Shown: piece after piece, positions 7,886-51,812 of the stretch
How the letters are laid out: the number at the start of each line of letters is the position of its first letter
Position numbering within the stretch: the first letter of the stretch is position 1
Assembly (NCBI RefSeq): GCF_028641065.1
Contig: NW_026575328.1
Coordinates: forward strand, 1-53,934
DNA length: 53,934 nt
Direction of reading: 5' to 3'
From: Leucoraja erinacea
Taxonomy: Eukaryota
The notes under the pieces: model-generated
Databases searched by the model: none
Told to the model about the DNA's origin: nothing
Seen by the model: the letters and a program-made list of their open reading frames with translations, nothing else
Made by a program: the position numbers and the translations under genes

Positions 7886-8557
7886 AATTTTTCCGTGTCT
7901 GTTAATTGCTTCAGCAGGATGTCATGTTTGTTGTTATAATCTCACCGCATACTTTCCGTTTCCTTCGCTGTCCTGGACTCCAAATCTTTAAACTGCTGAT
8001 TCAGGGCTACATAAAGCTCTTTTACTTCGCCGCAGCTATTATCAATTTTCTTAGAAAGATTGCCCTCCATAGTGGAGAAGTTATTCTGAATTGTAGAACT
8101 CATTTTGGCAAATTGCTTCTGAAGATCTTTAGTAATGTCTTTAAGAATATTAGCTCTTACCGTTTCTTCCCAGCTTTTCATTTCTTTCTCCTTTGTATCA
8201 CTTCTCGCAGCCATATCGCTTGTAGGTTGTTGAGGCTCCAGCTCCTCTTCCAAACTTTCAAACGTGAGTTCGGGGGTGGTTTTAAGCTCATCCAGAGCTT
8301 TTTGGAGCTGGAGACTGATTGTAGTTTTCTTGGGTCCTCTCTGACCTCTTCTCTTTCTCATCCAGTTTTTACGATAAGATCGTTTTAAATCCCAAAACCA
8401 CCAGTACCGTTTGATGGAGTCAGTACCCTTGACGTTCAGCAAACCTGATAAGAATTTTTAACTCGATCCTGGCATGGGAGTCGACTTTAAACGCGATTTG
8501 TCTGGAGGAGAGCTCAGTGCAGCTGCCTTCACTGCTTCATAGCAGCCACCGGAAGTC
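7886..8557 (-). mobile_element. L1 element 2, 5' UTR and ORF1 N-terminus (nonsense codon at 7942..7944)
   Basis: Starts GACTTCCGGTGGC at 8557; ORF 7942..8442. Confidence 0.9.
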
Positions 8558-11500: not shown

Positions 11501-12014
11501 TTCCTTTGATTCATCATTAGCAGTATCAATTTCCTTAGACAGGTTAACTTCCATTTTAGAGAGATTACTCTCCAGTGAAGTGCTCATAGTAGCAAACATT
11601 TTGGAGATTAGATCTTACCGTTTGTTCCCACTGCTTCATCTTCTTCTCCTTCTCCTTTTCTTTTGACTCTCCTCTTGTAGCCATTTCAGATACTGCTTGT
11701 TGAGGATTAAGCTCTTCATCTGAGCTTTCAGTTGTTGATTGAAGAGCTTCCAAGTCTTCTCGAAGCTGGAGTCTGATGGTAGCTTTCTTGGGTCCACGTG
11801 AGTGTTTTACTTTTGTCACCTAAAGGTCCCGTTAAAACTCCGATTTCTTCGACGCTTTCGGATGACATCACTCCCGCGACGCCAAGCAGCCCTCGGTGAG
11901 TGTTTTTAAATCGGTCCCGACTTTTAAAACGCCTTTTTACGCGATTTTTATGCGATTTTGCGGGAGCGGAGCTCAATGCTGCGCCTTCACCACATCATGG
12001 CGCCACCGGAAGTC
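8558..12014 (-). mobile_element. L1 element 3 (older subfamily): 5' UTR, broken ORF1 (10735..11819), spacer and degraded ORF2 endonuclease
   Basis: ORF fragments homologous to L1 ORF1 and ORF2; 5' end GACTTCCGGTGGCG at 12014; ORF2 is cut at 8558 by element 2. Confidence 0.88.
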
Positions 12015-14345: not shown

Positions 14346-14813
14346 TGCTGTGCTGCCCCCTATGTGCGCCACTGTTCTTTGGGCCCCTGTCTATACAGGA
14401 CAATGACTGTTTCCGTCAGCAATCTCCGTATTCTGAAAACATGCAGAATAATGGACTAATGTAGACACTGGTGACAGGGTAACGCTGACGCTGGCACTAA
14501 TCACGGGGCGACGCACTGCACTCCCTCCTGCCGTCTCCATTGAAATCAATAGCAACAAATAAAGCAGGCCGTTGAGTCGCGAGCAAATTCTTTGCAAAAA
14601 GCAAACGGAGAATTCAGCGATTCCCAGGGAACGATACGGCGTTCTGCTGTGAAATGTATGAACCGGATGAAATTGCCAGTCGATACTATGGCACGCAACG
14701 AAAGATTGCGATCGTAGGTGCGGCGTAGGTCCGTGGACGCTTTCAGTAGGGGGTTGGCCGATTGGATGTACACGGTGTTCGAAATTTCGGTCCTCCCAGC
14801 CTCCTGCGATCTA

Positions 14814-14829
14814 TCAGTATCGACCATTT
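14814..14829 (-). CDS. Gene A terminal coding exon (R-NGRY-stop), followed by a 3' UTR homologous to gene B's
   Basis: Acceptor tctgtccactgcag|AAATGGTCGATACTGA; the paralogue has the same acceptor and the same stop position (51797..51812); downstream homology at about 14450..14560 vs 52120..52220. Confidence 0.75.
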
Positions 14830-17800: not shown

Positions 17801-20800
17801 GATGATGCGTACACATTATCCAGAAAAAGCAGCATACCGGAGGACTGGGAGAAATTCAAAGACCAGCAGAGGAGGACAAAGGGCTTAATTAGCAAAGGGA
17901 AAATAGATTATGAAAGAAAACTGGCAGGGAACATAAAAACTGACTGCAAAAGTTTTTATAGATATGTGAAAAGAAAGAGATTAGTTAAAACAAATGTAGG
18001 TCCCAGTCAGAAACAGGTGAGTTGATCATGGGGAACAAGGATATGGCGGACCAATTGAATAACTACTTTGGTTCCGCCTTCACTAAGGAAGACATAAATA
18101 ATTTGCCGGAAATAGCAGGGGACCGCGGGTCAAAGGAGTTGGAGGAATTGAGTGAAATCCAGGTTAGCCGGGAAGTGGTGTTGGGTAAATTGAATGGATT
18201 AAAGGCCGGTAAATCCCCAGGGCCACATAGGCTGCATCCCAGAGTACTTAAGGAAGTAGCTCCAGAAATAGTGGATGCATTAGTAATAATCTTTCAAAAC
18301 TCTTTAGATTCTGGAGTAGTTCCTGAAGATTGGCGGGTAGCAAACGTAACCCCACTTTTTAAGATGGGAGGGAGAGAGAAAATGGGGAATGACAGACCAG
18401 TTAGTCTAACATCGGTAGTGGGGAAACTGCTAGAGTCAGTTATTAAAGATGGGATAGCAGCACATTTGGAAAGTGGTGAAATCATTGGACAAAGTCAGCA
18501 TGGATTTACGAAAGGTAAATCATGTCTGACGAATCTTATAGAATTTTTCGAGGATGTAACTAGTAGCGTGGATAGGGGAGAACCAGTGGATGTGGCGTAT
18601 CTGGACTTCCAGAAGGTTTTCGAGAAGGTCCCACATAAGAGATTAGTATACAAACTTAAAGCACAAGGCATTGGGGGTTCAGTATTGATGTGGATAGAGA
18701 ACTGGCTGGCAAACAGGAAGCAAAGAGTAGGAGTAAACGGGTCCTTTTCACAATGGCAGGCAGTGACTAGTGGGGTACCGCAATGCTTAGTGCTGGGACC
18801 CCAGCTATTTACAATATAGATTAATGATCTGGATGAGGGAATTGAAGGCAATATCTCCAAGTTTGCGGACGACACTAAGCTGGGGGGCATTGTTAGCTGT
18901 GAGGAGGATGCTAGGAGACTGCAAGGTGACTTGGATAGGCTGGGTGAGTGGGCAAATGTTGGCAGATGCAGTATAATGTGGATCAATGTGAGGTTATCCA
19001 TTTTGGTGGCAAAAACGGGAAAGCAGACTATTATCTAAATGGTGGCCGATTGGGAAAGTGGGAGATGCAGCGAGACCTGGGTGTCATGGTACACCAGTCA
19101 TTGAAGGTAGGCATGCAGGTGCAGCAGGCAGTAAAGAAAGCGAATGGTATGTTAGATTTCATTGCAAAATGATTTGAGTATAGGAGCAGGGAGGTTCTAC
19201 TGCAGTTGTACAGGGTCTTGGTGAGACCACACCTGGAGTATTGCGTACAGTTTTAGTCTCCAAATCTGAGGAAGGACATTATTGCCATAGAGGGAGTGCA
19301 GAGACGGTTCACCAGACTGATTCCTGGGATGTCAGGACTGTCTTATGAAGAAAGACTGGATAGACTTGGTTTATACTCTCTAGAACCTAGGAGATTGAGA
19401 GGGGATCTTATAGAAACTTACTAAATTCTTAAGCGGTTGGACAGGCTAGATGCAGGAAGATTGTTCCCGATGTTAGTGAAGTCCAGGACAAGGGGTCACA
19501 GCTTAAGGTTAAGGGGGAAATCCTTTAAAACCGAGATGAGAAGAACTTTTTTCACACAGAGAGTGGTGAATCTCTGGAACTCTCTGCCACAGAGGGTAGT
19601 TGAGGCCAGTTCATTGGCTATATTTAAGAGGGAGTTAGATGTGGCCCTTGTGGCTAAGGGGATCAGGGGGTATGGAGAGAAGGCAGGTACGGGATACTGA
19701 GTTGGATGATCTGCCATGATCATATTGAATGGCGGTGCAGGCTCGAAGGGCCGAATGGCCTACTCCTGCACCTAATTTCTATGTTTCTATGTTTCTATGT
19801 ACGTTCTCCCTGTGACCAGCGTGGATTTTCTCAGAGTCCGGTTTCCTCCCACTCTCCAAAATCGTAGAGGGTTGCCGGCTAATTGGCTTGATATAATTGT
19901 GAATTATCCTTAGTGTATGCAGGACGGTGTTAGTAGTGTGCGAAGATCGCTGGCCGGCTCTCACTCAACAGGCCTGTTTCCGCACTGTATTTTAAACGGA
20001 ACTAAACTAAAAGCACAAACTGGTTCTCTGTTACTTAGAGGGAAAGGAATGCATAATGTTACATACCTGAGTTTGGCACTACAATAAATGAAAGACATCA
20101 CTAACAGGGCAAAGGTTTTCAATCCAAGCGGAATACACAAGATCACAATGGGGGCAACCTGTGTGACTGAAGAGAGAGTGAGATAGGTCAAACAAGACTC
20201 TAGCAAAGAGAGTGAGAAAGTACTAATGGAGGCGGCTCATTTATAAATGTGGTGATAATGTGTCGTTAAACAGCAGAATTATTCTGACAAAAGTGAGGGT
20301 AATGCGTGTGAGTGAAATAATGAGAAAAGGGAGATTAAAAACCACATAGCAATCGCGCCGACAGGACTTAAGACGCGATTGTGTAACGTTCCTCCTGTAC
20401 TAACTTAATTGGCAACGGACAATGTGCCATTTCAAACGGCTGCGAACTGAAGTGCTTGAAATGGGTGGTAAATCCGGGCGACGGGTTAACATTGTAAATG
20501 TGCAATATCATTGGCAATACGCCAGTATTCACAGTAGCACAGTAAACATCAGTCACTAGTGTATGTATATAGGTGGATGAAGCAGGAACTGCGGAGAGAG
20601 AGATAGAACTAATACTCCAGGTCAGTGAAGGAACTCTACATTTCCAAATCTACTAATTGCTCTTTTTCTGTTTTCAATTAACTCAGTGACTGGCGCTCCA
20701 CGTCCACTGGGGCCGGCTGGTGGTGATGGTGGGGGGTCACACATATCCTACACCTACATATCCTAACACAGGTCTACACACTCGAGCCGAGTGCATCTTC

Positions 20801-23800
20801 ACCGCACTCCCTCGACACCATTAATATGTTTATTGTGCAAAACGCAAAGAGATGGAGTAAGGCGGTGGGTGAGGAAGTATCTGTGGAAGCAATGCGCAGG
20901 AGATATTTTGGTCGGGAGCCCTTCAGAACGATTGCATTGAGGAGAGAAAGCGGGAAGAGATTCGGGGCGGGGCAATGCCTGACAAGTGATAGGTGGACCC
21001 ATGTGGGGAGTGTGTTAATGATTGATTTCTCAATTTGCGTTAAGAAGAACAAAGCTGCCCTCAGTTCTGCAGGTGGAATCGCACCCTGACCCCATATAAT
21101 TATACAGTATTGAGACATTTTTATTGACGTACACAAATAATCTCTTACTACAAATTAACTAGCCAGAGCAGTTGTGGTCTCTTGTACATCGGCCCGTCGG
21201 CCTTCAGTGTAACATACATACACTGCCAGATCGCTCTGATCATCGACGGTGCCCCAACTTCTCATAGTTAACACATACTCTGCTTTTACGCCTTGTTCAC
21301 CCATTTGGCATGCTTCACATTTAATCTCATTATTAGTTTAATTTAGTTTAGTTTATTATCACGTGTTTCTAAGTGCAGTGAAAAGCTTTTATGGCTGCCG
21401 CGTTCCATCTGCCGCGTTCCCACCCAACCTTTGGCCTGCCCACACCCACTGAACCTTCTTTACTTCATCGTGCCCACCCAGAGTCTCATCTTCTCTTTTG
21501 TCATCGGTCAGATTGCAACTCCGTCATTTGAACATTCAGTCAAAACACTAATACATGTAGGGACTAAATGGGGCCGCTGCATTGCACGCTATGGTATCCA
21601 ATTGGCCACAATTGGTCAATCTGCGAGAGATGCGTTTATCCCCAACTTGCTATCTAGTCCGAGAACCAATTTTCAATCACGGGCGCATGGTCCCCTACGT
21701 CCGACTACTCCGGATTTCAGATTGTTGACCAATCTCCCATGCGGGACTTGACCGAGATCCTTCTGAAAATCCAAACACTCCACATCAATTAGCCTTCTTC
21801 AATTCTACTCATCACATCTTGCATACATCCATGCTGAACATAGAACATAGGAAACTGGTGCACATGAACCGGCCCTTCGGCCCACTGTGTCTGTACCGCA
21901 TATTATGCCAAGCAAAACTAATCTCGTCTGTCTGCACACACGATTCATACCATCCTATTCCCTGTATATCCATGTGCCTATCTAAAAGCCTCTTAAATGT
22001 CACCAACGTATCTGCTTTCACCACCACCCCTGCCAGCGCGGTCCATGCACCCACCACTCCCCACTTCAGCAACTTGATCCCGCACACCTCATTTAAACAT
22101 AGCCTATTTCGCCTGCAACCTAAGCCCTCTAGCCTTTGTTTTGTGTTCTGCTATTACATGCTTCATTATGAGGTTCAGTTTCCAAAGGCTGACCGAAATC
22201 TTTCATAGCAATTTGCCGAGCAGACTACCCGTTAGTTTAACAAGTCCATGTCAATGTAGTTACTGCTGAGTGTGGCAGCCGAGATCCCGCCCCCAGGTCC
22301 CTGATCTTCAACTTTACGAGCCGAGAGGCGGGTTTTCTGTTCCTGCTCCCCTTCCTCCCTCCACCCCCTCGCTGTACACTGCAGAATGGTTTCTTACCGG
22401 GTGTGACCCGCAGCCGGAGCTCACGCTGGTACTGATGAATAAACGGAGGGTATAAAATATAAAGGTATTTTGCCTCCGGTTTCCTGATCGGCACGAGACA
22501 CAAGTAGTCGTGACTGTCGTCCACCCTCAGCTGCTTTATCCAGGTTGAGGCGTTTCCGCGCTCTGGGTTGCCGACCAGCTCGAACCGAGTTGCTCCGTTC
22601 TCCGCCGCCCAGGATCCATCAGCTTGGGGTCTGAACGTGACGATGTGTCGGTAGGGATCCTTCCTCATCCATGTGACCGCGAGAGGGGCGTGCTTGAGCG
22701 GAGGCGGTGGGAACACACATGATAACGTAGCCGAAGCCCCCTCAGTCCCAGTCACCACTGAGACATTCTCGCCGGAAGCTGAGGGAAGGACAGACACCAG
22801 AATGTATCAGCGTTCTGTGGGTGAATTATCTTCACATTCTAGCAAGTCTCTACCATCTCCATGCACGTTTGTTCGTCTAATTCCAGTTCAGATTTAGGTG
22901 CTCTTAGAATAACCACAACAAAGTCTACACAAGTTACATATAGATTGGGCCAACCAAATTGGTAACAGCGCTGGGGAGGAGCATTTCCTCGAATATAGAT
23001 TTTTAAGCCAATATGTAGAAAAAAACGACTAATGGGCAGGCCACCCTAGACTGGGTATTGAGTTGATGAAGGATTAGTTAGCAATCTTGTTGTGCTATGC
23101 CCCTTGGGCAACAGTGACCATGTTATGATGGAATTGTGCATTAAGATGGTGAGCGACACGGTTAATTCACAGACTAGGGACTTGAACTTAAAGAAAGGAG
23201 ACTTTGGCGGTATGAAACGGTAGCTGTATGGGATAGTCTGGTAAATGGTACTTAAAGAGTGACGGTGGAGTTGCAATGGCAAAGATTGAAAGATCACATG
23301 ATGACCTACATTTGTTCATCCCAGCCTGGCGTAAAAATAAAACGGGGAAGACGGCTCAACCGTGACTAACGTGGCAACAAAAGGATAGCGTTAATTTCAA
23401 GGAAGAGGCATATAAATTGGCCAGAGGAAGCAGCAAACCGGAGGACTGGGAGAAATTTAGAATTCAACGAAGGAGGTCAAATTGGTTAATTAAGAGGGGG
23501 GAAAATAGAGCACGAAAGAACGCTTGCGGGGAATATAAAAACTGACTGTAAAAGCTTCATTACATATGTGAAGAGGAAAAGATTAACGAAGGCAAATGTA
23601 GATCCCTTACAATCAGAGACAGGTGAATTTATAATGGGAAATAACGAAATGGCAGAACAGTTAAACGAGTAGTTTGGTTCTGTCTTCACTAAGGAAGACA
23701 CAAACAATCTCCTAGAAATACTAGGGGCAGATGATCTAGTGGGAGGGAGGAAATGAAGAAAATCCATTATTAGTCGCGAAATTGTGTTATGTAAACTGTT

Positions 23801-26396
23801 GGGACTGAAGGCAGATAAATCCCCAGGGCCTGATGGTTTGCATTCCAGAGTACTCAAGGAGGTGGCCCTGGAAACAGTGGGTGCATTTGTGATCATTTTC
23901 CAATGCTCTCTCGATTCTGGATCAGTTTCTGTGGACTGGAGGGTAGCCAATGTAACTCCACTTTTTAAGAAAGGAGGGAGAGATAAAACAGGGAATTATA
24001 GACCAGTCAGCCTTACATTGGTTGTGGGAATGATGCTTGAGTTGATTATTAAAGATGTAATAGCAGTGCATTTGGAAAGTAGTGACAGGATCGGTCAAAG
24101 TCAGCATGGATTTACGAAGGGGAATCATGCTTGAAGTGTTTTTTGGATTTATTTGAGGATGTAATACGTATAATAGATAAGGGAGAACCAGTGGATGTGG
24201 TGTATCTGGAATTTCAAAAAGCCTTTGACAAGGTGCACACAAGATATTAGTGTGCAAAATTAGAGTACGTTGTATTGGAGGACGGGTATTGACATGGATA
24301 GAGAACTGGTTGGCAGACAGGAAGCAAAGAGTAGATATTAAGTGGTCCTTTTCAAAATGGCAGGCAGTGAATAGTAGGTTGCCGCAAGGCTCAGTGCTGG
24401 CACTCCAGTTATTTACAATATATATTAACGATTTAGATGAAGGAAGGTATGTAACATCTCCAGGTTTGCGGATGACACAAAGCTGAGTGGCAGAGTGAGC
24501 AGCGAGGAGGATGCTATGAGACTTGAATATGATGGGTGAGTGGGCAGATGCATGGCAGATGCAGTAAAATGTAGACAAAGGTGAGGTTATCCACTTTGGT
24601 AGCAACAACAAGAAGGCAGATTATAAACATATAACCATATAACAATTACAGCACGGAAACAGGCCATCTCGGCCCTACAAGTCCGTGCCGAACAACTTTT
24701 TTGGTGTCAGATTAGGAAAACGTTAGGTGCAACGAGACCTGTGTGTGCTTGTACAGCAGGGAGTGAAGAAAGCTAATGGCACATTGGCCTTCATTGGGAG
24801 AGAATTTGAGTTTAGGAGCAAGGAGGTCCTACTGTAGTTGTACAGGGCCCTAGTGAGGCCACACCTGGAGTATTGTGTGCAGTTTTGCTCTCCAAATTTG
24901 AGGAAGGACATTCTTGCTATTGAAGAAGTGCTGTACAGGTTCACCAGGATAATTCCCGGGATGGCGGTACGGGTATATGAGGAAAGAATGGGTCGATTGG
25001 GCTTGTATTCCCTGAAAATTAGGTTGAGAGATGTTGAGAGAGGATCTTTTAGAAACGTTAAAACATTTCTTACGGGATTGGACAGGCTAGATGCAGGAAA
25101 AAATGTTACCGATGTTGGGGGAGTCCAGAACCAAGGGGCCACAGTTTAAAATTAACGCTTAAGCTATTTAGGACTGAAATTAGGAAAAACGTTTTCACCC
25201 AGAGAGTTGTTAATCTGTAGAATTCTCTGCCACAGAAGGCAGTGGAGGCCAAAGCACTGGAGGATTTTCAGGAGAGAGTTAGATTTTGCTCTTAGGGCTA
25301 ACGGAATCAAGGGATGTGGGCAAAAAAGCAGGAACGAGGTACTGATTTTGGATGATCAGCCATGATCATATTGAACGGCAGTGCTGGCTTGAAGGGCCGT
25401 ATGGCTATGTTCCTTTCTATGTTTCTTAAGTGAGCAGCTTCTTGTTTCTCAGCTCCAGCCATGAGGCCCCATTGGACCATCGCTGAATAGTGATATCTAA
25501 GACCACTGCAATGTTTTCTCTACTATCAAAAATAGATTTCTCTCCTCCTCTCTTCCCTCCCTCTTTATCCAACCATTAGCGCCTGTTTCATGGAGCGTCG
25601 AACTGCTAGCTCTGTCCCTACCGTAGTCACTTTTCTGTAATGTCTATAACATCCATTATTTAAGGATGGCAGCGGTAGAGTTGTTGCATCACAGCGCCAG
25701 GGACCCGGGTTCGGTCCTGACTAGGGGTGCTGTCTGTATGGAGTTTTTTAATTATCCCGTGAACGCGTTGGGTTTCCCCGGGTGCTCCTGTTACGTCATA
25801 CACTCCAACGACGTAGAGGTTTGTAGGATAATTTGTAGTTTAACATTGTGCAGCGGGATTCACTGGAAAGGGAGTAATAGGGGAAACCCGGCGCCTCACA
25901 CCGATACGTGCTTGATCAACATTTATTGATCATCAGCGTGCCAGGGAAGCGTTTGACCCGTGCGATCTGGGCACAGCTACAGCATTTAAGCATTGTTTCT
26001 CACATATCACAGTCAGGCGTGTTGGGACCACAGTGTGGAAGGATCCAATATTGAGGTCCACTTGGCACCGAAACGTAGCACCATCGTCCTCCCGGCTCAG
26101 TCGCCCCACCATTATCGAGACATCCCTCTGTCTGAGGTTCCCTACGAATCTGCACCGGCTCCCTCCGGCCTCCTGTGTCACTTCATCGCAAAGGGAGCGG
26201 CCGGGACCGGGATATGTACAGTTAAAAACAACGCTCTCAACCCCGGATTTTCTCTTGTGCCACAGCACGGAGCCGGTGAGGATGCGATCAGTGGGTGGGT
26301 GCGTGAATGTACACGGCAAAACAGCGTTGGCCCCTTCCATCGCAGACAGCTCATCAGCACCAGATATTGTCCAACCATTGGACGAAAAATCTACAC

Positions 26397-26428
<32 letters not shown>

Positions 26429-27719
26429 GGCGGGGGGGGGGGGGGGGAGGTGAGGGAGAGAGAGAGAGATGAGCCAATGTTAGAACAGCAAGTGAACAGA
26501 TCTGCAGTTTCAGACTACACTGCCTGATGTGTAGTCACAAGTGCTACCATTAGGTGGCCATGTGCATCACTTCTACAGTAACATAGAGGAGTGGGTTCCA
26601 GACCGGGAGATATTGGGGGTGGGGGGGAGTGGTATTTGCAGATGGGGGGGGGGGGGGGGTGGGGGAGATGAGGAGGTGGAGGGGTGGTATTCGCGGATGA
26701 GGGTGGGAGGGGCTAGTGGGGGCGAGGATGGGAGGGCGGTGGGATGGGGGGTGGGGGGGGGGGGGGGGGGGGTTTCCAACAGCAATGAATGGCCTGCTGA
26801 TAGCGACTGGGATCCAATTCTGGGGCAGGGGTTGGGCTGTCTATAATTCATGTCTGAATCTTGGGTCGGTCGTCTATCTAAATACCATTGTATTTTTTTC
26901 TGGAGGAGCAGCGATATTTGAACATTGTGTAACTCTGCTTTGATACAAAAGCGTTTCTGGAACTCAGTCGGTGTGACTGTATAGTTACAGCAGGAACATG
27001 CGACATTCGGGCCCTTCCTCTGTAAAAGAGCAATATATCATACCTAGTCACCTGGACCAATAGACCCACAAATGCCTTCCTTTCTGAGGCATTCCTCGTT
27101 CCCTTAAAACGCTGCATTTTTTATCACACACCCTTTCCTCCCCCAACCCCATTTCCATGCGGACGTGAGGAACATTGTTTCTTCCAACCGGCTTGACCAA
27201 TCGCATTCTATCTGTAACAGTTTTTTTGTTCCCTTCACTGATGGGAACAGCCTCACTCTGTTTTACACCCTTTACAATTTTGCATCCCCCAATCGGGTCT
27301 CCTGGCAATATCCACTTGCTCCGCTATTAAATAAGACCGTGATTTCCACTGCTTTTATTCCATCTCCCCTTTTTCGCTTGCATCGAACAACATTCCACCC
27401 TCTTACCTGTCAAGTGTGCCACTCTGGTTTAGAAAAGATTGGTCCGTGTGCAATTGTATCCACCTACTCTTCCGCCGTTTGACCCGCACGGAAGGAGTGA
27501 AGTGGATCATCAAGACCTCATCCCCTCCCTGGCAAGGGCAGTCAGTTACGGTCAAGACCAGTTTATTTCCTACCGCCGACTGACTTCGGCGGGAGCTAAC
27601 GTACAGACACCTGGAGGACTGGCAATATGGGATGAGACAAAGAAGGAAAATCACCTACTGTAACCCAGGACTGACACCGAGAGCAGGGCCGAGCAGAGAC
27701 AGACCCGGATAGAGGGCAT
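14814..27719 (-). CDS. SIGLEC15-like: Gene A: Siglec-15-related activating receptor (SP-V-V-TM[Lys]-short tail), 314 aa; join complement(27659..27719, 26004..26390, 22398..22778, 20067..20166, 14814..14829)
   Basis: All introns are GT-AG with consistent phases (1,1,1,2) and the spliced 945 nt is open to TGA. D1 ([26 protein letters not shown]...VFNC...[23 protein letters not shown]...C.V) matches the Siglec-15 V-set pattern as I recall it ([26 protein letters not shown]...VFRC...RFRLLGNPRRNDLSLRVERL...D..YFCRVEF). [12 protein letters not shown] resembles Siglec-15 LGFKALLL. Every exon has a paralogous exon in gene B. Confidence 0.85.
14960..15197 (+). mobile_element. HE1-like SINE
   Basis: CACGGTGGCGCAGCGGTAGAG head; GGGCCGAAGGTCTGTTTCC tail. 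Confidence 0.75.
15880..16490 (+). mobile_element. CR1 3' fragment interrupted by an antisense retroposon tail (about 16192..16345)
   Basis: CR1 3' motifs; the insert starts with (TTCAAG)n and TTTATTGTCA. Confidence 0.7.
16901..19799 (+). mobile_element. CR1 LINE, whole ORF2 (EN+RT) with stops and frameshifts, inserted in a SINE (halves about 16836..16900 and 19800..20010)
   Basis: [27 protein letters not shown] and FADD motifs; (TTCTATGT)n tail; SINE sequence resumes at GTACGTTCTCCC. Confidence 0.93.
20067..20166 (-). CDS. Gene A exon 4, transmembrane exon with intramembrane Lys ([33 protein letters not shown])
   Basis: Acceptor ctctctcttcag|TCAC, donor CTCAG|gtatgt; hydrophobic run with K at 20117..20119; paralogue at 50213..50303. 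Confidence 0.88.
21540..22130 (-). mobile_element. Old CR1 fragments including a 3' end
   Basis: [11 protein letters not shown]-like ORF and a (CTATGTT)n tail. Confidence 0.65.
22398..22778 (-). CDS. Gene A exon 3, second V-set Ig domain D2
   Basis: Acceptor tccttccctcag|CTTCC, donor CCCG|gtaaga, 381 nt; motifs [29 protein letters not shown]. Confidence 0.92.
22900..25425 (+). mobile_element. Degraded CR1 LINE (ORF2) in gene A intron 2
   Basis: [19 protein letters not shown] and [12 protein letters not shown] fragments; CR1 3' UTR. Confidence 0.9.
25665..25860 (+). mobile_element. HE1-like SINE
   Basis: GCAGCGGTAGAGTTG A-box region and GGTTCGGTCC B-box. Confidence 0.7.
26004..26390 (-). 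CDS. Gene A exon 2, Siglec-15-like V-set domain D1
   Basis: Acceptor (ct)n-gtgtag|ATTTTTCG, donor ATAT|gtgaga, 387 nt; Ig Cys (LPC, FRC) and Trp (VLW); overlaps ORF 25933..26340. Confidence 0.92.
26396..26469. repeat. (GA)n plus poly(G) microsatellite forming the polypyrimidine tract of gene A exon 2
   Basis: Read directly. Confidence 0.9.
27659..27719 (-). CDS. Gene A exon 1, signal peptide [20 protein letters not shown]
   Basis: ATG at 27719, 61 nt, phase-1 donor TACA|gtaggt; homologous to 33531..33591. Confidence 0.85.
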
Positions 27720-33530: not shown

Positions 33531-33591
33531 ATGTGGTCTCTCCGGGTTTGTCTCTTCACCGTCCTGCTCTCCGTCTCAGTCCAGGGTTACA
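33531..33591 (+). CDS. Gene B exon 1, signal peptide [20 protein letters not shown]
   Basis: ATG at 33531, donor TACA|gtgagt; hydrophobic leader. Confidence 0.88.
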
Positions 33592-36327: not shown

Positions 36328-39300
36328 GCAGTGGAGAGATAAGTTAATTTGGCCTTCCATCACAGCGATGTGATGGATGTTTATGCAAATTATGTTGTGT
36401 CTTGGGTCTATGTGTTTGTAATGTATGGCTGCAGAAACGGCATTTCGTTTGGACCTCAAGGGGTCCAAATGACAATTAAATGTATCTTGTATCTTGTATC
36501 TTGTAAATGGATAGGACAGGTTTAGACGGATTTTGGGCCAAACGCAGGCAGGCGAGTCTAGTGTAGATGGGACATATTGGTGGGTGTGGACAAGTTGAGC
36601 CGAAGGGTCTGTTTCCACACTGACTTGATGAGTCAATGTCTCTAACCTATATCTAATGGAATGACCAAATTGCTGGAGTAACTCAGCGGGTCTGGCAGCA
36701 TCTCTGGAGAACATGAAACGCTGACGTTTCCGCGTTCGACCCTTCGTCGTACTGCCTCTGAGATGCTGCCCGACCCTCTAAGTTACTCCAGCATTTCGTG
36801 TCTTTCTTTTGTAAACCGGCACCAGTGGTTCCGAAAGGCTCCACGTGGCGACATCCCCGACTCAAACCGAATCTCTTCCCCAGTTATTCTATATTGAGTA
36901 GAATTTGTGCCGTCATGTCGCAGTTGGAGAAGACGTTGGTGAAGCCGAAATTTAGAGGAGTGTGTTCAGTTCTGTGCATCATGTTATATGAAATATGTGG
37001 TATAACTGGAACGGGTACAGAGAAGGCTGACCCGGATGTTGCCAGGACTAGAGGGTCTGAGCTATAGGGAGAGGTTGAGTAGGCTGGGAATCTGGAGCTC
37101 AGGAGAATGAGGTGTGATCTTAGAGAGGTGTATAAAATAATGAGAGGAATAGATCGGATAGTTGCACATATTATCTTGCCCCGAGTAGGTGAATCGAGCT
37201 CCAGAGGACATAGGTTTAAGGAGAAGAGGAAACGTTTTTAATGGGATTCTGAGGAGAACATTTCAACGAATGTTGGTGGCTGTATGGAACAAGCTGCCAG
37301 AGGAGGTTGTTCAGACTGGGACTATCCCTGTTAAAAAAAAAATTAGAGGCAGACTTTTCGTACAAGAGTTGGACAATATCCGGTGCTGATGTGGTGTCTG
37401 CCGTGGAAGGAACGTCCGCTGTGTTGCCGTGTACATTCACCCACCCACCCACTGATCACAACCTCACCGGCTCCGTGTTGTGGTACAGGAGGAAATCCGG
37501 GGGTGACCACCTTGTGTTTAACTGTACATATCTAAGTCCTGACCGCTGCAGCGGCGAAGAAGTGACACCGGCGACAAGAAGGGTTTTGTTGAGATTCGTG
37601 GGGAACCTCAGGCAGAGGGATGCCTCCATCATGGTGGAGCGACTGAGCCGGGAAGACGACGGTGCAAGGTACCGGTGCCGTGTGGAACTCAACGTTGGAA
37701 AACGTCACGCTGTGGAGCCAACACGCCTGACCGTGAGAGGTGAGGAACAATGCTGAGAGGCTGTAATTGCCCCAGATAGCCCAGGCCAAACGTGTCCATG
37801 GTGCACTGAATGATCAATACATTTTGTTCCGCCCCATGTTAGACGTGCCGGTTCCGCATGTGATAGCTTTGCAATCCATCCCGCAGTAGAATTTAGTTTA
37901 GTTTAGTTAAGTTTAATTTATTGTTGTCACGTGCACCGAGGTACAATGAAAAGCTTTTTCGTTGCGTGCTATCCAGTCAGCGAAAAGACGATACATATCT
38001 ACGATCAAGCCATCCACAGTGCAGAGATGCAGGATATAGGGTGTAATGTGTTCCTAGATAAGGTCAGAGCGGCAACCTATTCGAAACCTACATGGTCTTT
38101 AGCAAGGCCTTTGATAATAATCCGCATGGTAGGCTGGCTGCTCTAGAAGGTCGGGTCAGTGGGATCCAGAGAGCGTAAGTTAACTGGATGAAAAGTTGTC
38201 CTGATACAAGGCAGCAGAGGATGATGGTGATAGTCTCTTGGACTGTAGGCATGTGACCAGTGTTGTGCTTTAGAGATTGTTGCTGGACCCGTTGCTGTTG
38301 GTAGTCAGTATCAACGATATTGGATAAAAATGCGCAAGGCATACCTAGTAAATTGGACGATGACGCTAAAATATGTGATATTGTATACAGTGCAGAAGGA
38401 TGATAGATACAAAAACTGGAGTAACTCGGCGGGTCAGACAGGGTCTCTGGAGAAAATGAATAGATGACGTTCCTGGTCGAGGTCCTTCTTCAGACTCAAG
38501 ACGTGACTCAAGAGGTGAGATAGCAGAGTCAGGGGGTGGGGGAGAAGGCAGGAACGGGGCACAGATTCCCGATGATCAGCCATGATCACATTGAATGGTG
38601 GTGCTGGCTCGAAGGGCCGAATGGCCTACTCCTGTACCTATTGTCTATTGTCTATTGTTTATTGTTTCCGGTTAGACTATTCAGACTAGTCTTCAGGCTC
38701 GGCCCAAAACGTCACCTTCTCTCCAGAGATGCTACTCAAGTTTTGTGTGTGTATCTTGGGTTTAAACCAGCAACCCCAGTTCATTCCTACGCAGTTCAGA
38801 ATGATATCAAGAATATCTTCGGGATCTTGTGCGAGTTGCTGCAGTTTTGGAGGTTTCCATGTTGAATAGGGCCTGGAGATTGATGTAGAACAGAAGCACA
38901 TTGGATTACAAATACAAATACAAATACATAGCTTCCCGAAAGTGGCGTCAAATGTAGACAAGGTGATGAACAATAGTCTTGTCTCACTGGCAGTCAACAG
39001 GCAGGGCATTGAATACAGATAAAAAGAACTGCAGATGCTGCTTTACAAAAGTGGACACAGAGTGCTGGTGTAAGGCAGGTAAGGCAGTATCCCACGATAA
39101 CATGCATATACGACCTTTAGAGTCGGAACCCTTCGTCAGACGGATTGTGGAGGAGGGAATAAATATTGTGCGTATTCACGCTGGCTATTTCTTTCCTGAT
39201 TTTATACGTTCTGAAAATATCACCCTGCGACCCGTATAATTGCAAACGTTATATTGTTTCGGGGGGGGGGGGGGTGTACATTGACAGAAAATGTATAGAA

Positions 39301-42300
39301 AGCATATGGGACAAACGGAGGCAAATGTCAATCCACATGGCCTACTTGAACTGAGGAGTTATTAATCTATATGAGTGCTGTATATTTAAACAGTCCACAC
39401 TGCCAGACGTTTGCACTGCGAACGGGAGAGTAGAGGGAACACTCACTGAGAGAGGTGCCTCGTGCTATAGGCGACGGCGGGGCCTGGTACCAGTTGGGTG
39501 GGCGGGTCATCGCTTAGCACATTGAACAAGCCCAGCGCAGAACAGCAGCGGTGGCACGGGTTCACTGTCGTTCGTTCTCTGACACCCAAGACAGAGCTGA
39601 TGCAGTGCCGCACTGCCAGAGGCGCTCTGCCCAGCCCAGTGACTCGCTGCCGGGGCGACCCTTGATCTGCCCTGTTCCCGGCGCACACACCATACCTTCC
39701 CGGGGACCATCACTGTCAGCTCCACACTGGTCGCCGCCTCCACCCACTAGCCCCGAGGAGAGGTCGGTACAAAACAATTCACTCACAACACTCTGAAATA
39801 TTCTGATGGTAGATAAAATATGCCGGAGTAACTCAGCTGGACAGACAGCGCCTTTGGAAAGAAGGAATGGGTGACATTTCGGGTTGAGACCCCTCTTACA
39901 TTGTGATGTCTGTCCTTCACTCAGCTGCTGTCGTGAATGTCTCAGTTATGACTGGGACTGAGGGGGCTTCGGCCACGTTACCCTGTGTGTTCCCACCGTC
40001 TGCACTCAACCACACCCTACACAGAATCACATGGATAAGGAAGGATACCTACCGACACATCGTCGCGTTCAGACCACAACTTGATGGATCCTGGGCGGCG
40101 GAGAACGGAGCAAATCGGTTCGAGCTGGTTGGGGACCCAATGCAGGGAATCGCCTCAACCAGGATAAAGCAGCTGAGTGTGGAGGACAGTGACGGCTACC
40201 TGTGTCTGGTGGATATCAGGAAACCTGATTACTACCGTCCTGCATCGCCCCCAATCCATAGCCCCATCGTAAACCCGTCGTTTATCCAACTTTCGCAGCG
40301 TGAGGTCCTCCTGCGGGTCACAGCTGGTAAGAAATCATCGCCACATTCTGCAGTCCGCAGCGATTGTGTAGAGGGAGGGAGGGAAACCGGATCCCCGTCT
40401 CTTAGGGCTCAACGAGCCGAGCCGAGCGTCCGTGTAGCCAAGATCCTCTACAGAGCCTTGGGGGCAGCTTTCTTGTCGCCACAACTAGGGTGTATTATAG
40501 CAACATAGTAAATAGGTGCAGCAGTAGGCCATTCAGCCCTTCGAGCCTGCACCGCCATTCAATATGATCATGGCTGATCAGCCAACTCAGTATCCTGTAC
40601 CTGCCTTCTCTCCATACCCCCTGATCCATTTAGCCACAAGGGCCACATCTAACTCCCTCTTAAATATAGCCAATGGACTGGCCTCAACTACCTTCTGTGG
40701 CAGAGAATTCCAGAGATACACCACTCTCTGTGTGAAAAATGTTTTCCTCATCTCGGTCCTAAAAGATTTCCCCCTTATCCTTAAACTGTGACCCCCTTGT
40801 TCTGGACTTCCCCAACATCGGGAACAATCTTCCTGCATCTAGCCTGTCCAAACCCTTAAGAATTTTGTAAGTTTCTATAACATCCCCCCTCAATCTTCTA
40901 AATTCTAGCGAGTACAAACGGAGTCTATCCAGTCTTTCTTCATATGAAAGTCCTGGCATCCCAGGAATCAGTCCGGTGAACATTCTCTGCACTCCCTCTA
41001 TGGCAAGAATGTCTTTCCTCAGGACGCAATACGCAATACTCCAGGTGTGATCTCACCAAGACCCTGTACAACTGTAGTAGAACCTCCCTGCTCCTATACT
41101 CAAATCCTTTTGCTATGAAAGCTAACACACCATTCGCCTTCGTCTCTACCTGCTGCACCTGCATGCCTACTTTTAATGACTGGTGGACCATGACACCCAG
41201 GTCTCGTTGCCTCTCCCCTTTTCCTAATCGGCCACCATTCAGATAATAGTATACTTTCCTGTTTTTGCCACCAAATGGATAACCTCACATTTATCCACAT
41301 TATACTGCATCTGCCATGCATTTGCCCACTGACCCAGCCTATCCAAGTCACCCTGCAGTCTCCTAGCATCCTCCTCACATCAAACACTGCCCCCCAGCTT
41401 AGTGTCATCCGCAAACTTGGAGATGTTACACTCAATTCCCTCGTCCAAATCATTAATGTATATTGTAAATAGCTGGGGTCCCAGCACTGTGCCTTGCGGT
41501 ACCCCACTATTTACTGCCTGCCATTGTGAAACGGACCCGTTTACTCCTACTCTTTGCCTCCTGTCTGCCAGCCAGTTCTCTATCCACATCAATATTGAAC
41601 CCCCAATACCGTGTGCTTTAAGTTTGTATACTAATCTCTTATGTAGGACCTTGTCGAAAGCCTTCTGAAATTCCAGATATAACACATCCACTGGTTTTCC
41701 CTTATCCAGTCTACTAGTTACATCCTCGAAAAATTCTATAAGATTCTTCAGACATGATTTACCTTTCATAAATCCATACTGACTTTGTCCAATGATTTCA
41801 CCACTTTCCAAATGTGCTGCTATCCCATCTTTAATAACTGATTCTAGCAGTTTCCCCAGTACCGACGTTAGACTAACTGGTCTGTAATTCCCCGTTTTAT
41901 CTCTCCCTCCCTTTTTAAAAAAGTGGGGTTACATTAGCTACCCTCCAATCCTCAGGAACTACTGCAGAATCTAAAGAGTTTTGAAAAATTATCACTAATG
42001 CAACCACTATTTCTGGGGCTACTTCCTTAAGTACTCTGGGATGCAGCCTATCTGGCCCTGGGGATTTATCGGCCTTTAACCCATTCAGTTTACCTAACAC
42101 CACTTCCCAGCTAACTTGGATTTCACTCAATTCCTCCATCTCATTTGACCCCCGGTCCCCTGCTATTTCCGGCAGATTATTTATGGCTTCCTTAGTGAAG
42201 ACGGAACCAAAGTAATTATTCAATAGGTCTGCCATGACCTTGTTCCCCATGATCAATTCACATGTTTCTGACTGCGAGGGACCTACATTTGTTTTAACTA

Positions 42301-48300: not shown

Positions 48301-51300
48301 ATTATACTTTGGTATCACAAGGGACGTTTCACACTAAAATTATTAGTTTTGCAAACACGAGAATGCACACAATCGCCATCTATAACACGCCAACAAAGTT
48401 ACAATGTATTCAATTTGGCTCCAATTACTCTTTGTTCCCCCCCCCCCTGCCGATCGCTCCGCACGCCGAGTTCCCCACGCCTCGATCCGCACGCCGGGAT
48501 TTACTTTTATTCTCTGCGGTGCATCCGGCACCTCGGCGGCCCATCCGACCACCTATACTCGACATCGTCCGCGACCGCGGCCGGGTCCTCTCTCGAAGGC
48601 CACAGGCATCCGCCGCCCGGCTTCTCAAGTTTTCGTTGTTAATCCATTGACAGATATAGAAGAGAACAGAAATGCTCCTATTTCTTCATTTATATTAAGA
48701 TAATATTTGTATACGCGAGTAAAGATGTTTTTTGCAATTATATTGGATGTTGATGAAACCTCACCGACAGACATGAGTACACTTTATAACTACAATGAAG
48801 ATTACCATCGCCAAAACCTCCCTCTTCATATGTAGCCAGTTATCACTTGCTAGGCTGTGTCCCTCCTCAACCGTCATTGCCACCCCCTCCTCCCGCTAAT
48901 ACAATAGTTCTGCATAAGAATCCCGACAGTAAACGTCGCCGGTTGTCTGCCTCCACAGATGCTGCCTGACCCGCTCAGTTATTGGTGCATTTTAGGTTTT
49001 GTTTAATACAAATGTATAGTTGTTGTCGAGTGCGTGAAGATGCTCTGAACAGTTCCAATAATGACAGTCCAGCGAACGCAGCTGTTGTTGCGGGAGCCCC
49101 GGACAAACAGGCCACCAATCTGTGACCTCATAAACTAAATTTAACTAACTTAACTAAAACAGACAAAAGAAAACAACAACAAAAAAAAGAAAAACAAACG
49201 GACTGCTGGCGAACCGCAGCTGACAGGCAGCGCCGCCACTTCCGGTTTTCCCCTGACTGAAGAATCTCGGACCAGGGGTCGCAGTTTAATGCATATATTA
49301 TTTAGTACTGAGACGAGGAAGAGTTCCTCATCTAGGTTATGGAGAAACCTTCGAATCCCATCCCCCCCCCCCCCCCCCCCCCCCCCCCCCGCCTTCCACA
49401 CCCTTCACGGGCATGGACATTCAGTCACTGTGTACATTAAATCAAAAAATCAATAGATTTCAATAGTTAATCAAAAATCAATAGATTTCAATAGTTATTC
49501 AAAAATCAATAGATTTTAAAATTGTCAAGCTGATTCACTGACCTGAAATATTAATTCAGTTTCTCTCTCCACAGATGCTGTCTGATCAATCTAACCACAG
49601 AAAACGACACAGAATGCTGGAGTAACTCAGCGGGTCAGGCAGCATCTCTGGAGTAAATGAATCGGTGACGTTTCGGGTCAGGTCCATATATCAGTCTGAA
49701 GAAAGGTCCAGGGTTGAAACGTCACCATGTTCTCCAGAGATGTTGCTTGACCCGTTGAGTTATACCAGCACTTTGTATCTTTTTAGTAAACCAGCGTCTG
49801 TAATTGCTTGTAGTACCAAGGTAGTTATATCAGTTAATGTGACGTTCACAGTGCTATCGTGGAGACTTGTTTTCACCATTCAATACTGAATATTTGCAAT
49901 ATTAACCCACCATTTATCACCCATTTGAAGCCCTTCAGCACTTGGCCCAATGAAGTGATACACACTCTTTGCAAATAAACATACAAGTGTATGGATTTTA
50001 GGCGGTCTGGCGTTAATTCCTATCACTGTGATAATTATTGTACATGGTTTTTTTTTTAATGTCCCTTTTTGTATTCCTTGAACACGCGAAACATTCTACT
50101 GTTTAGTCTCACCGGCATCAATACATCTGCAGATCAGCGGTCTACATCATCGGTATCCCCCTCTTTGTGACAATCTGGTTTGACCACTCTCATTCTATAT
50201 TCAGTCCCACAGACGTTCCCGTTACGATCTTGTGCATGCCACTTGGATTGAAAACCCTTGCCTTGTTAGTGATGTGCTTCGTTTTATATTGTGACAAAGT
50301 GAGGTATGTAACATTATAAATATGCTTGCCTCTAAGTGACTAAACATAAATAACGGTGAAGCTCTTTATGTGTCGGGAAGTGATTCATTTACTCGATGGC
50401 ATCCCAGGTGAACCAAGTATTTGTTGCAAATATTGTCACATGATAAAGAACTGTTTATTATATTGTAGTTGACTGCAGAAATTTGCTGTTCGGACATTTC
50501 CAGTTACCCTTTCCAAATTACAATGGTGATGTACTTCAAACAGTTTAAAAAAGCTTTTGAGCACTTTGGGATATTTGCCATGTTGAATGAATCTGATAAA
50601 GGCGAGCATAGAATGCGTGCCCGGCAGAATCACTGACGCCGCGCAGGAGCAGTACACATGCGCACTGTTTGTCTCCTCATCTCAAATGAACTAATATGAG
50701 GAGGCCTAACTGCATCCCCAGCTGGGATCAGCCAACTCAGTTCAAACCAAGAATAGATCTGTTGTCCTGGTCTACACAGTCCGGCTCCCCGAGACAAAAC
50801 TTCGCTCACATGTTATGGTCACGGTTCAGTCTCCAAAACCATTTTTCTACTCTGTCTTCCATAGAAACATAGAAATATAGAAAATAGGCGCATATGTTGG
50901 CTATTCGGCTCCTCGAGCTCCCACGTCGTTCAATGTGATCATGACTGATCATCAAAAATCAGAGCCCTGTTCCCGCTTTCTCCCCACATCCCTTGATTCC
51001 TTTAGCCTAAGATCTATATCATGTTCCCTCTTGATAGCATTCAGCGAATTGGCCTCCGCTGCTTTCTGTGGCAGATAATTGCACAGATTCACAACTCTCG
51101 GGGTGAATACGTTTTTCCTTATCTCAGTCCCATATTGCCTACCCCTTATTCTTAAACTGTGACCCTTGGTTCTGGACTGTCCCAACTCGGTGAACATTTT
51201 TCCTGCATCTACCCTGTCCAATTCCTTAAGAATGTCATATGTTCCTATGAGATCTCCTCTCTCCCTTGTAAATTCCAGTGAATATAAGCCCAGTCGATTC

Positions 51301-51812
51301 ATTCTTTCCAGTTTAATCTGCAAGGTTATGATTTCGCGTTTCCAATTTCAGTCCGTTCTTGATCTCCAATAATATGCTTTTGCTTCGCATTTTAGATTTG
51401 TAAACCAAACTCACTCTATCCCCCGGTAAAATCCTGGACGTGCACGTTAGTTGTGTATGTCGTACTGGTTATCGTCGAAACAAAATGTTTCACCTTCCAC
51501 TGGTCGATATTAATCTGTACCTGCCATTCGCTTCCCAATTCACCATCAGATCAATATCATCCTGTAGCCTAGGCGTATCTCCTCACTATCACACCGCCAA
51601 TATCATCAACGATGTTGAGCGTATGCAATTCCGTGTTAAACGCAAATGTTGTGTTGCAGTAAAATGTACGGTCTACAGAGTTCAGTTGAAGCCTCGATCG
51701 AAACCCCGTTAGTGCTACCTACTGATGGAGAGAGTAGCGGTCTTATTGCACCTTTAAGCTGTCTTGTTTTAATTGGTCTTGTTTCGTCCACTGCAGAAAG
51801 GGTAGAGGCTGA
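33531..51812 (+). CDS. SIGLEC15-like: Gene B: Siglec-15-related activating receptor (SP-V-V-TM[Lys]-short tail), 318 aa; join(33531..33591, 37353..37739, 39925..40326, 50213..50303, 51797..51812)
   Basis: Spliced 957 nt is open; GT-AG introns; D1 has YRCRVEL (essential Arg kept). Caveats: the exon-2 acceptor is weak and there is an N-gap in intron 3, although intronic homology to gene A is colinear on both sides of the gap. Confidence 0.78.
33787..34100 (+). mobile_element. HE1-like SINE
   Basis: tRNA-like head, GGGCCGAAGGGCCTGTTTCC tail and (CTAAA)n. Confidence 0.8.
34980..35295 (-). mobile_element. HE1-like SINE
   Basis: Reverse-complement head GGGCGGCACGATGGCGCAG. Confidence 0.7.
35722..36503 (+). 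mobile_element. GC-rich non-autonomous retroposon with ATTAAA and (TATCTTG)n tail, inserted in a CR1 3' fragment (35610..36625)
   Basis: CR1 sequence resumes after the tail; TAAAT on both sides; related pieces at about 16192..16345, 49020..49245 and 52240..52660. Confidence 0.6.
36900..37346 (+). mobile_element. Degraded CR1 fragment abutting gene B exon 2
   Basis: GTATGGAACAAGCTGCCAGAGGAGGT CR1 motif; the 3' end is missing. Confidence 0.75.
37353..37739 (+). CDS. Gene B exon 2, Siglec-15-like V-set domain D1
   Basis: cag|ACTTTTCG at the position homologous to gene A's acceptor; donor AGAG|gtgagg; 387 nt; within ORF 37307..37756. Confidence 0.88.
39925..40326 (+). CDS. Gene B exon 3, second V-set domain D2
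   Basis: Acceptor tccttcactcag|CTGC, donor GCTG|gtaaga, 402 nt; within ORF 39903..40508. Confidence 0.92.
40501..47800 (-). mobile_element. Near full-length CR1 LINE (repeated 5' UTR, ORF1 with Cys knuckle and SGNH-esterase GDS motif, degraded ORF2), split by a Rex1 element
   Basis: ORF2 fragments 40587..43370; ORF1 remnant [13 protein letters not shown] at about 46910..46955; 5' UTR repeats at 47580..47650 and 47729..47793. Confidence 0.9.
43398..46470 (-). mobile_element. Rex1/Babar-clade LINE with an 860-aa open EN+RT ORF (43621..46203); frameshift near 46270 upstream
   Basis: [48 protein letters not shown] and [11 protein letters not shown] motifs; upstream [11 protein letters not shown]; AATAAA plus (CATAT)n tail. 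Confidence 0.92.
47872..48300. repeat. (TGAA)n/(TTAA)n simple-repeat array spanning an assembly gap (N 48032..48183)
   Basis: Read directly. Confidence 0.95.
49440..49517. repeat. About 2.7 copies of a 29-bp tandem repeat ATCAAAAATCAATAGATTTCAATAGTTA
   Basis: Read directly. Confidence 0.85.
50213..50303 (+). CDS. Gene B exon 4, transmembrane exon with Lys ([30 protein letters not shown])
   Basis: In frame from the acceptor cccacag|AC; donor GTGAG|gtatgt; K at 50251..50253. Confidence 0.82.
50861..51310 (-). mobile_element. CR1 3' fragment
   Basis: ORF 50952..51323 (RLGLYSLEF...RTKGHSLRI) and tail. Confidence 0.85.
51797..51812 (+). CDS. Gene B terminal coding exon (R-KGRG-stop)
   Basis: Acceptor tttcgtccactgcag|AAAGGGTAGAGGCTGA; AATAAA downstream at 52085..52090. 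Confidence 0.75.

What the first reader, a model, noticed from the sequence alone, without database searches (positions are those of the whole stretch)
26062..26064. Essential sialic-acid Arg present in gene B but replaced by Gln in gene A
Seen: B D1 reads YRC-R-VEL (CGT, 37679..37681); A D1 reads FRC-Q-VDL (CAA, 26064..26062). Known: the F-strand Arg (YFCRVEF in Siglec-15) makes the salt bridge to the sialic-acid carboxylate, and its loss abolishes binding, as in human Siglec-XII. Inference: the duplicates have split ligand roles, with B a sialic-acid sensor and A a non-lectin or altered-ligand receptor.
Basis: partly seen in the sequence, partly recalled or inferred. Interest (0 to 1): 0.72.

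Follow-up and report, generated by a model that had tools for sequence, protein, structure and literature searches.

The report
Skate Siglec-like receptor lacking sugar-binding arginine
A skate immune-receptor gene has glutamine where its relatives have the arginine that grips the sugar sialic acid, so it likely no longer binds that sugar in the usual way; the same loss recurs across this shark-and-ray gene family, mostly in members predicted to activate cells, and is known from apes and humans, so it is real but fairly ordinary.

Summary
Observation confirmed. A has CAA (Gln) at 26064-26062; B has CGT (Arg) at 37679-37681; the site is Siglec-15 R143 by sequence and fold. A is intact and spliced, and its Gln is shared by a second copy in this assembly and by the thorny-skate orthologue. 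The proposed clean split is weak. (1) B keeps the Arg but has Arg (Leu in Amblyraja) where Siglec-15 has the stacking aromatic Y154; A keeps Phe there. (2) This window's B has a one-base loss before its membrane exon helix, a deleted splice tract and a decaying second domain. (3) A and B are both of the activating type (membrane Lys, short tail); intact Arg-plus-Phe pockets lie in other paralogues, including the ITIM one. (4) The Arg is missing in 24 of 85 shark and ray domains of this family, about 12 changes on the tree. It is kept in 27 of 28 inhibitory-type but 18 of 34 activating-type first domains; this bias is not significant with independent pairs. Arg-less Siglecs are known (Siglec-XII, ape Siglec-5/14). 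A new member of a known kind; the family-wide bias is the part worth testing.

The parts
27659..27719 (-). Gene A leader exon (coding part, ATG at 27719)
   Evidence: joined to 26390 in a contig of run X3
26004..26390 (-). Gene A first V-set exon (Siglec-15-like D1)
26062..26064 (-). Gln130 (CAA) at the Siglec-15 R143 position
26038..26040 (-). Phe138: G-strand aromatic (Siglec-15 Y154 equivalent) kept in A
22398..22778 (-). Gene A second V-set exon (D2; Leu at the Arg position, as in the whole family)
20067..20166 (-). Gene A transmembrane exon; Lys codon 20119-20117 in LGLKT
14814..14829 (-). Gene A last coding exon (short tail and stop); five exons give one open frame of 314 residues
   Evidence: Amblyraja P0023 ends alike
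33531..33591 (+). Gene B leader exon; ATG 5812 bases from A's ATG, head to head
37353..37739 (+). Gene B first V-set exon; its acceptor lacks the pyrimidine tract present in the C1440 copy
37679..37681 (+). Arg130 (CGT), the essential Arg, kept in B
37703..37705 (+). Arg138 (CGT) in place of the G-strand aromatic in B
39925..40326 (+). Gene B second V-set exon; 14 residue changes against the C1440 copy, 10 of them new on this copy
50205..50303 (+). Gene B transmembrane exon; C run 50218-50220 is one base shorter than in C1440 (frameshift with the orthologous acceptor; open with an AG ending at 50212); Lys codon 50251-50253
51797..51812 (+). Gene B last coding exon (short tail and stop)

Best explanation
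Gene A is an intact, spliced skate receptor of a Siglec-15-related family (two V domains, a membrane lysine, a short tail) with Gln in place of the sialic-acid arginine, so it likely no longer binds sialic acid through the canonical pocket and would act as an adaptor-coupled activating receptor for a non-self or protein ligand. Shown: the anatomy, the Gln and its age (shared by two skate genera), the recurrence of Arg loss in the family. Inferred: an activating receptor that grips host sialoglycans risks firing on self, so the Arg (a mutable CGY codon) is released or selected against in activating members and held in inhibitory ones, which would read sialic acid as 'self'. B is not the complementary sensor: it is a second activating member whose pocket has eroded at another residue (the aromatic), and whose copy in this window is likely a null allele or decaying duplicate. 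DAP12-type coupling and any ligand are untested.
For: Open five-exon frame for A; leader-D1 splice in run X3; A D1 119/128 and D2 119/126 identical to Amblyraja. Membrane LGLK motif aligns with that of Siglec-15, whose Lys binds DAP10/12 (PMC7226832). Arg kept in 27/28 uncharged-membrane or ITIM first domains, 18/34 Lys-type, 11/17 unclassified (Fisher p 1e-4, rows not independent; 17/28 vs 25/26, p 0.002, after dropping allele, isoform and divergent rows). Of 39 columns at least 90% conserved in the inhibitory class, the Arg column shows the largest drop in the Lys class (0.96 to 0.53; mean of the 39 is 0.93), so it is not just faster evolution overall. 12 Arg/non-Arg changes on a tree built without that column, including a separate Gln in Mobula P0046. 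B: Arg/Leu at Y154; lesions in the window copy.
Against: With phylogenetically independent pairs the class bias is not significant (4-6 pairs, median p 0.5; never in the opposite direction for the Arg). 18 of 34 Lys-type members keep the Arg and 12 keep Arg plus aromatic, as do human Siglec-15 itself and the two Lys-type skate genes at C3:12.7 Mb. In apes the Arg is lost in the inhibitory Siglec-5 too. 16 of 24 replacements (H, C, Q, Y) are those CpG decay would give, which fits relaxed constraint without any new ligand. 14 of 61 Arg-bearing domains lack the aromatic, so B's change is not unusual and may be tolerated. No adaptor was found (one search, DAP10 family, no match). No binding data exist here.
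Confidence: 0.5

Rival explanations
1. Neutral erosion: activating members of a birth-and-death family are simply under weak constraint at the sugar pocket; the CpG-bearing Arg codon decays and A has no new ligand.
For: All 9 Arg-bearing first-type V domains read in this genome use CGC or CGT (and window B); 16 of 24 replacements are H, C, Q or Y; dN/dS 0.4-0.9 in allele and paralogue comparisons; 17 replacement vs 5 silent variants listed in A D1 across runs X1-X3, near the neutral 3:1 (some may be paralogue pieces); window B is decaying.
Against: A stays open and 93% identical between two genera; the Gln is unchanged in every copy that covers it. This rival shares 'A lost canonical binding' with the best explanation and differs only in the cause.
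Confidence: 0.22
2. One reading: the inverted duplicates divided labour, B a sialic-acid sensor and A a non-lectin.
For: Arg in B and Gln in A in both Leucoraja copies and in Amblyraja; whole-gene inverted homology and a shared one-residue insertion before the F strand; sisterhood not rejected (AU p 0.33); the C1440 copy of B is full length (P0026).
Against: B lacks the G-strand aromatic in 3 of 3 copies; its C'-C'' Cys is shifted; window B carries a frameshift; better-equipped paralogues exist on C3; both neighbouring Rhinoraja Lys-type genes lack the Arg.
Confidence: 0.15
3. A still binds sialylated ligands, through a non-canonical site or with help from the membrane, as Siglec-6, MAG and Siglec-11 do.
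For: PMC12953582 (abstract); A keeps the A-strand Trp and the G-strand Phe.
Against: Siglec-15, the closest solved relative, loses binding with R143A; the residue two after the Gln varies freely (Asp to His or Asn in X1, X2).
Confidence: 0.08
4. The family does not bind sialic acid at all, so the Arg/Gln difference has no bearing on ligands.
For: Zebrafish Siglec-15 with its Arg bound tested glycans weakly (PMC7226832); no C2 domain; over all 85 domains the Arg column is only of median conservation (0.72 vs median 0.69).
Against: 27 of 28 inhibitory-type members keep the Arg, 24 of 28 with the aromatic; Arg is kept in lungfish, newt, gar and teleost relatives.
Confidence: 0.06

Closest known systems
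Siglec-15 (PDB 7zoz; PMC10264397, PMC7226832)
   Same: Best sequence and structure match of D1; B-F disulfide, C' Cys, A-strand Trp, membrane Lys in a G-x-K motif.
   Different: Second domain is V-set, not C2; multigene family with ITIM members; A lacks R143, B lacks Y154; Y87 not kept; F-G loop three residues shorter.
Arg-mutant primate Siglecs: human Siglec-XII (R122C), great-ape Siglec-5/-14 (Arg to His or Tyr), human SIGLEC17 (Arg to Trp) (PMC6288428, PMC7379906)
   Same: Essential Arg replaced in one paralogue of a fast-evolving cluster, with the rest of the receptor kept.
   Different: Those are CD33-related Siglecs; there the loss hits inhibitory members too. Here it is a Siglec-15-related family and losses fall mostly on Lys-type members.
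Paired Siglecs 11/16 with the null allele SIGLEC16P (PMC5701461)
   Same: Close neighbours with alike ectodomains; an activating member segregating as a small deletion that truncates before the membrane helix, much like window B.
   Different: A and B are both activating-type and only 67% alike in D1; the ITIM relative lies elsewhere (C3:12.13 Mb).

Membership tests
Siglecs | Essential F-strand Arg in the N-terminal V-set domain: gene A | tested here: not met
   Gln130
Siglecs | Essential F-strand Arg: gene B | tested here: met
   Arg130
Siglecs | A-strand Trp (Siglec-15 W44) in A and B | tested here: met
   Trp27 in both
Siglecs | G-strand aromatic (Siglec-15 Y154): gene A | tested here: met
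   Phe138; alignment; register fits the model range 150 to 166
Siglecs | G-strand aromatic: gene B | tested here: not met
   Arg138 in both Leucoraja copies, Leu in Amblyraja. No residue-level overlay could be viewed.
Siglecs | One V-set domain followed by C2-set domains | tested here: not met
   D2 of A and B is PF07686 V-set, over the cut-off; no further domain before the membrane exon
Siglecs | Arg-dependent binding of sialic acid | not testable with these tools
   needs binding assays
Siglec-15 subfamily | B-F disulfide (C64-C142) and C'-C'' disulfide (C95-C104) | tested here: inconclusive
   Cys47/Cys129 in both; Cys78/Cys88 in A fit; in B the partner is Cys86, two places earlier; bonds not inspected in the models
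Siglec-15 subfamily | Membrane Lys | tested here: met
   LGLKT in A and B; helix in the models
Siglec-15 subfamily | Association with DAP12/DAP10 | not testable with these tools
   PF07213 search of the genome gave no match, which shows nothing
Siglec-15 subfamily | Orthologous position beside SLC14A1 (human order recalled, from no call) | tested here: inconclusive
   Urea-transporter genes lie on C1; placed family members lie on C3; the window's scaffold is unplaced
Paired receptors | A and B signal in opposite directions | tested here: not met
   both have membrane Lys and a short tail without ITIM
Paired receptors | Family holds ITIM and charged-membrane members with alike ectodomains | tested here: met
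   P0011 (ITIM-like motifs, 64% identical to A D1) and P0012/P0029 (Lys) in the same species

The most novel reading that the evidence does not exclude
Sharks and rays have an undescribed paired-receptor family built from the Siglec-15 V domain, a parallel to the mammalian CD33-related Siglecs, in which inhibitory members read sialic acid as self while activating members repeatedly disarm the sugar pocket (A by the Arg, B by the aromatic) under selection to avoid self and to catch microbial proteins that exploit the inhibitory members.
Probability: 0.3. Interest if true: 0.6.

Novelty: new member of a known kind. Interest (0 to 1): 0.3.

Why it matters
The single substitution teaches little: Arg-less Siglecs are known. 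The family does offer about a dozen natural replicates, from a lineage far from mammals, for the open question of why activating Siglecs exist and why the essential Arg is lost so often. It also warns that the RefSeq name 'Siglec-15' or an Arg alone does not make a gene a sialic-acid sensor.

Tried and rejected
Sequencing error or private variant for the Gln: rejected. A as pseudogene: rejected (open frame; splice junction). Misalignment of the Arg: rejected. Rescue by D2: D2 has Leu (Gln or Val in a few) at that site throughout the family. Foldseek on the whole models returned only tandem-V proteins such as JAML and scFv, uninformative; for the B model (C1440 copy, not the window's B) VIA-align gave 7zoz Z 12.4, tied with a tandem-Ig hit. 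Expression: no RNA holder listed; raw RNA reads on the D1 exons were few in X6 (mean depth under 1) and absent in X10, X13 and X7; one search was swamped by repeats. Independent-pairs test underpowered. DAP10 search blank. Literature searches for a description of this family and for a CpG account of the Arg codon found none; the library lacks most subscription papers and I opened no supplements, so an earlier description is not excluded. One paper sought by a recalled id was not held. Earlier findings by place and by sequence: none. No complex was predicted.

Full report
OBSERVATION. The codons are as reported: CAA at 26064-26062 on the minus strand (FRC-Q-VDL) and CGT at 37679-37681 on the plus strand (YRC-R-VEL). 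Both exons are V-set domains whose best PDB sequence hit is Siglec-15, with the site on R143 of YFC-R-VEF. R143 makes the salt bridge to the carboxylate and R143A abolishes binding (PMC10264397, passages). An AlphaFold model of A (mean pLDDT 83.7) has Siglec-15 as its best match among 48,161 chains (Z 15.2, rmsd 2.2, 120 aligned).

ANATOMY. The window is a whole unplaced scaffold, C147. Gene A is RefSeq XP_055521110 of Leucoraja erinacea (100% hit on a contig of this length). A (minus) and B (plus) lie head to head, ATGs 5812 bases apart, each with leader, V, V, membrane and short last exon. Both membrane segments carry the Lys of LGLKT, matching the Siglec-15 Lys that couples to DAP10/12 (PMC7226832, passages); neither has an ITIM. 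The second domain is V-set, not C2, and has Leu at the Arg position. A's five exons give one open frame. A contig of run X3 runs from position 26390 into letters that equal the end of A's leader exon (one search compared), so A is spliced in that sample; X1-X3 bear another organism code than the runs labelled with this species, so they may be a relative or another label.

THE GLN IS OLD AND STABLE. Scaffold C1440 is colinear with much of the window at about 95-97% identity, a second haplotype or recent duplicate; it has CAA in A' and CGT in B'. The Amblyraja orthologues have Gln and Arg (P0023, P0002). X1 and X2 cover the codon unchanged; X3 and X7 do not cover it. From the family's CGC/CGT codon (9 of 9 Arg-bearing first-type domains read in this genome; and window B) CAA needs two changes.

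B IS A POOR CANDIDATE FOR THE SENSOR. Siglec-15 also uses W44 and Y154. Alignment of the family with Siglec-15 and the family profile against 7zoz put Y154 on residue 138: Phe in A, Arg in both Leucoraja B copies, Leu in Amblyraja B. I could not view a residue-level overlay; the end offset of the structural match (150 to 166) fits this register. The weight of this is limited: 14 of 61 Arg-bearing domains lack the aromatic. The window's B has further trouble against C1440: one C fewer in the membrane exon, which shifts the frame to a stop before the helix if the orthologous acceptor is used (an AG 8 bases on keeps the frame); loss of about 366 bases holding the pyrimidine tract of the D1 acceptor; and 14 residue changes in D2 (dN/dS 0.93), 10 of the 13 that could be polarised new on this copy. 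The first two could be assembly errors; the third cannot easily be. No RefSeq protein for the window's B came up. The B model was therefore made from the C1440 copy.

FAMILY CONTEXT. The genome search gave 15 matches, 13 of first-domain type, on C3, C513, C1440 and C147: 9 with Arg, 2 Gln, 1 Asn, 1 Leu. Skate members with Trp, Arg and Phe all in place lie at C3:12.1-12.7 Mb: one ITIM gene (P0011) and two Lys genes (P0012, P0029). Protein searches (the latter scored only its 7995 best candidates) gave 85 distinct chondrichthyan first-type domains, alleles and isoforms included: Arg 61, His 8, Gln 4, Gly 3, Cys 3, Ser 2, Asn 2, Lys 1, Tyr 1. Paralogues group by lineage; A and B each form a well-supported skate clade; whether they are sisters is open. 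A tree of 79 first domains without the trait columns needs 12 Arg changes. Mobula P0046 has a separate Gln. Related Arg-bearing proteins occur in chimaera, lungfish, newt, gar and teleosts. A V-plus-C2 gene at C3:21.92 Mb has the Arg but an uncharged membrane segment and no W44, so no clear 1:1 SIGLEC15 was found.

CLASS BIAS. An earlier AI note (e1-9112073) suggested that activating members lose the Arg more often. I tested it on my 79 first domains, classed by pattern: Arg in 18 of 34 Lys-type, 27 of 28 uncharged-membrane or ITIM-type, 11 of 17 unclassified. Some 'inhibitory' records show only the uncharged helix or only the ITIM tail. Fisher p is 1e-4, or 0.002 after dropping 4 allele or isoform rows and the divergent clade, but rows are related. 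Among 39 columns conserved at 90% or more in the inhibitory class, the Arg column falls most in the Lys class (0.96 to 0.53, mean 0.93). With independent pairs the trend never reverses for the Arg but is not significant.

MECHANISM. Most likely A is an activating receptor that has dropped canonical sialic-acid binding. The reasoning, inferred from paired-receptor biology (PMC5701461 and PMC13358205, passages), is that inhibitory members need the Arg to sense self sialoglycans, whereas activating members gain little or risk autoreactivity by it. Neutral CpG decay under relaxed constraint explains much of the same data (16 of 24 replacements are H, C, Q, Y) and is the main rival. Non-canonical binding is possible (PMC12953582, abstract; PMC10122656, search listing).

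COMPARISON AND VERDICT. It works like an Arg-mutant Siglec: human Siglec-XII, ape Siglec-5/-14, SIGLEC17 (PMC6288428, PMC7379906, passages). A fails the Siglec test on the Arg, and both genes on the V-plus-C2 layout, so they are Siglec-15-related receptors rather than Siglec-15. I found no paper on this family (PMC8455134 mentions Siglecs only in passing), within a library that lacks most subscription journals; supplements were not opened. Interest 0.3.

Noticed in passing
window 50218-50220 and 37340-37352: The window's gene B looks like a null allele or decaying duplicate (one-base loss in the membrane exon, lost acceptor tract), much like human SIGLEC16P; assembly error not excluded.
   Followed up: partly
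G000:C1440:50104-80703: Second scaffold colinear with window 24052-53505 at about 95-97% identity: a deeply diverged haplotype or a recent duplicate.
   Followed up: partly
window 26154-26152: A D1 has a fifth Cys (Cys100) where the family has Phe; shared with Amblyraja; likely unpaired.
   Followed up: no
window 26058: The acidic residue two after the Gln (Asp132) reads His in run X1 and Asn in X2; across X1-X3 17 listed variants in A D1 change a residue and 5 are silent (some may come from paralogue pieces).
   Followed up: partly
window 14549-14829 (-): RefSeq isoform X1 of A (P0025) skips the membrane exon and reads the last exon in another frame: a predicted secreted form.
   Followed up: no
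window 14444-14858 and 16599-16723 vs 52220-51768 and 50635-50509: Non-coding homology on opposite strands beyond the membrane exons shows that the whole gene, with its 3' end, was duplicated in inverted orientation.
   Followed up: partly
G000:C3:21920985-21923900: V-plus-C2 Siglec-15-like gene with the Arg, an uncharged membrane segment, no A-strand Trp and no C'-C'' cysteines; beside it V-V-C2 genes at 21.95-22.01 Mb and 16.0 Mb (the last with Leu for Arg).
   Followed up: partly
proteins P0108, P0116: Lungfish protein with seven tandem Siglec-15-like V domains, each with the Arg, and a newt V-V protein with ITIM-like motifs: the Siglec-15-related radiation is not confined to sharks.
   Followed up: no
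window 1293-11614, 16787-19790, 40497-46341: Long retroelement-like open frames (1241 aa at 5015-1293; 906 aa at 46341-43624), tandem ORF1-like copies at 6013-8457, and a 2.9 kb element present in introns of both A and B at 91% identity; labels from recall, not tested.
   Followed up: no
window 47987-48221 and 53306-53934: (ATTC)n-type simple-repeat arrays, holding the two N stretches.
   Followed up: no
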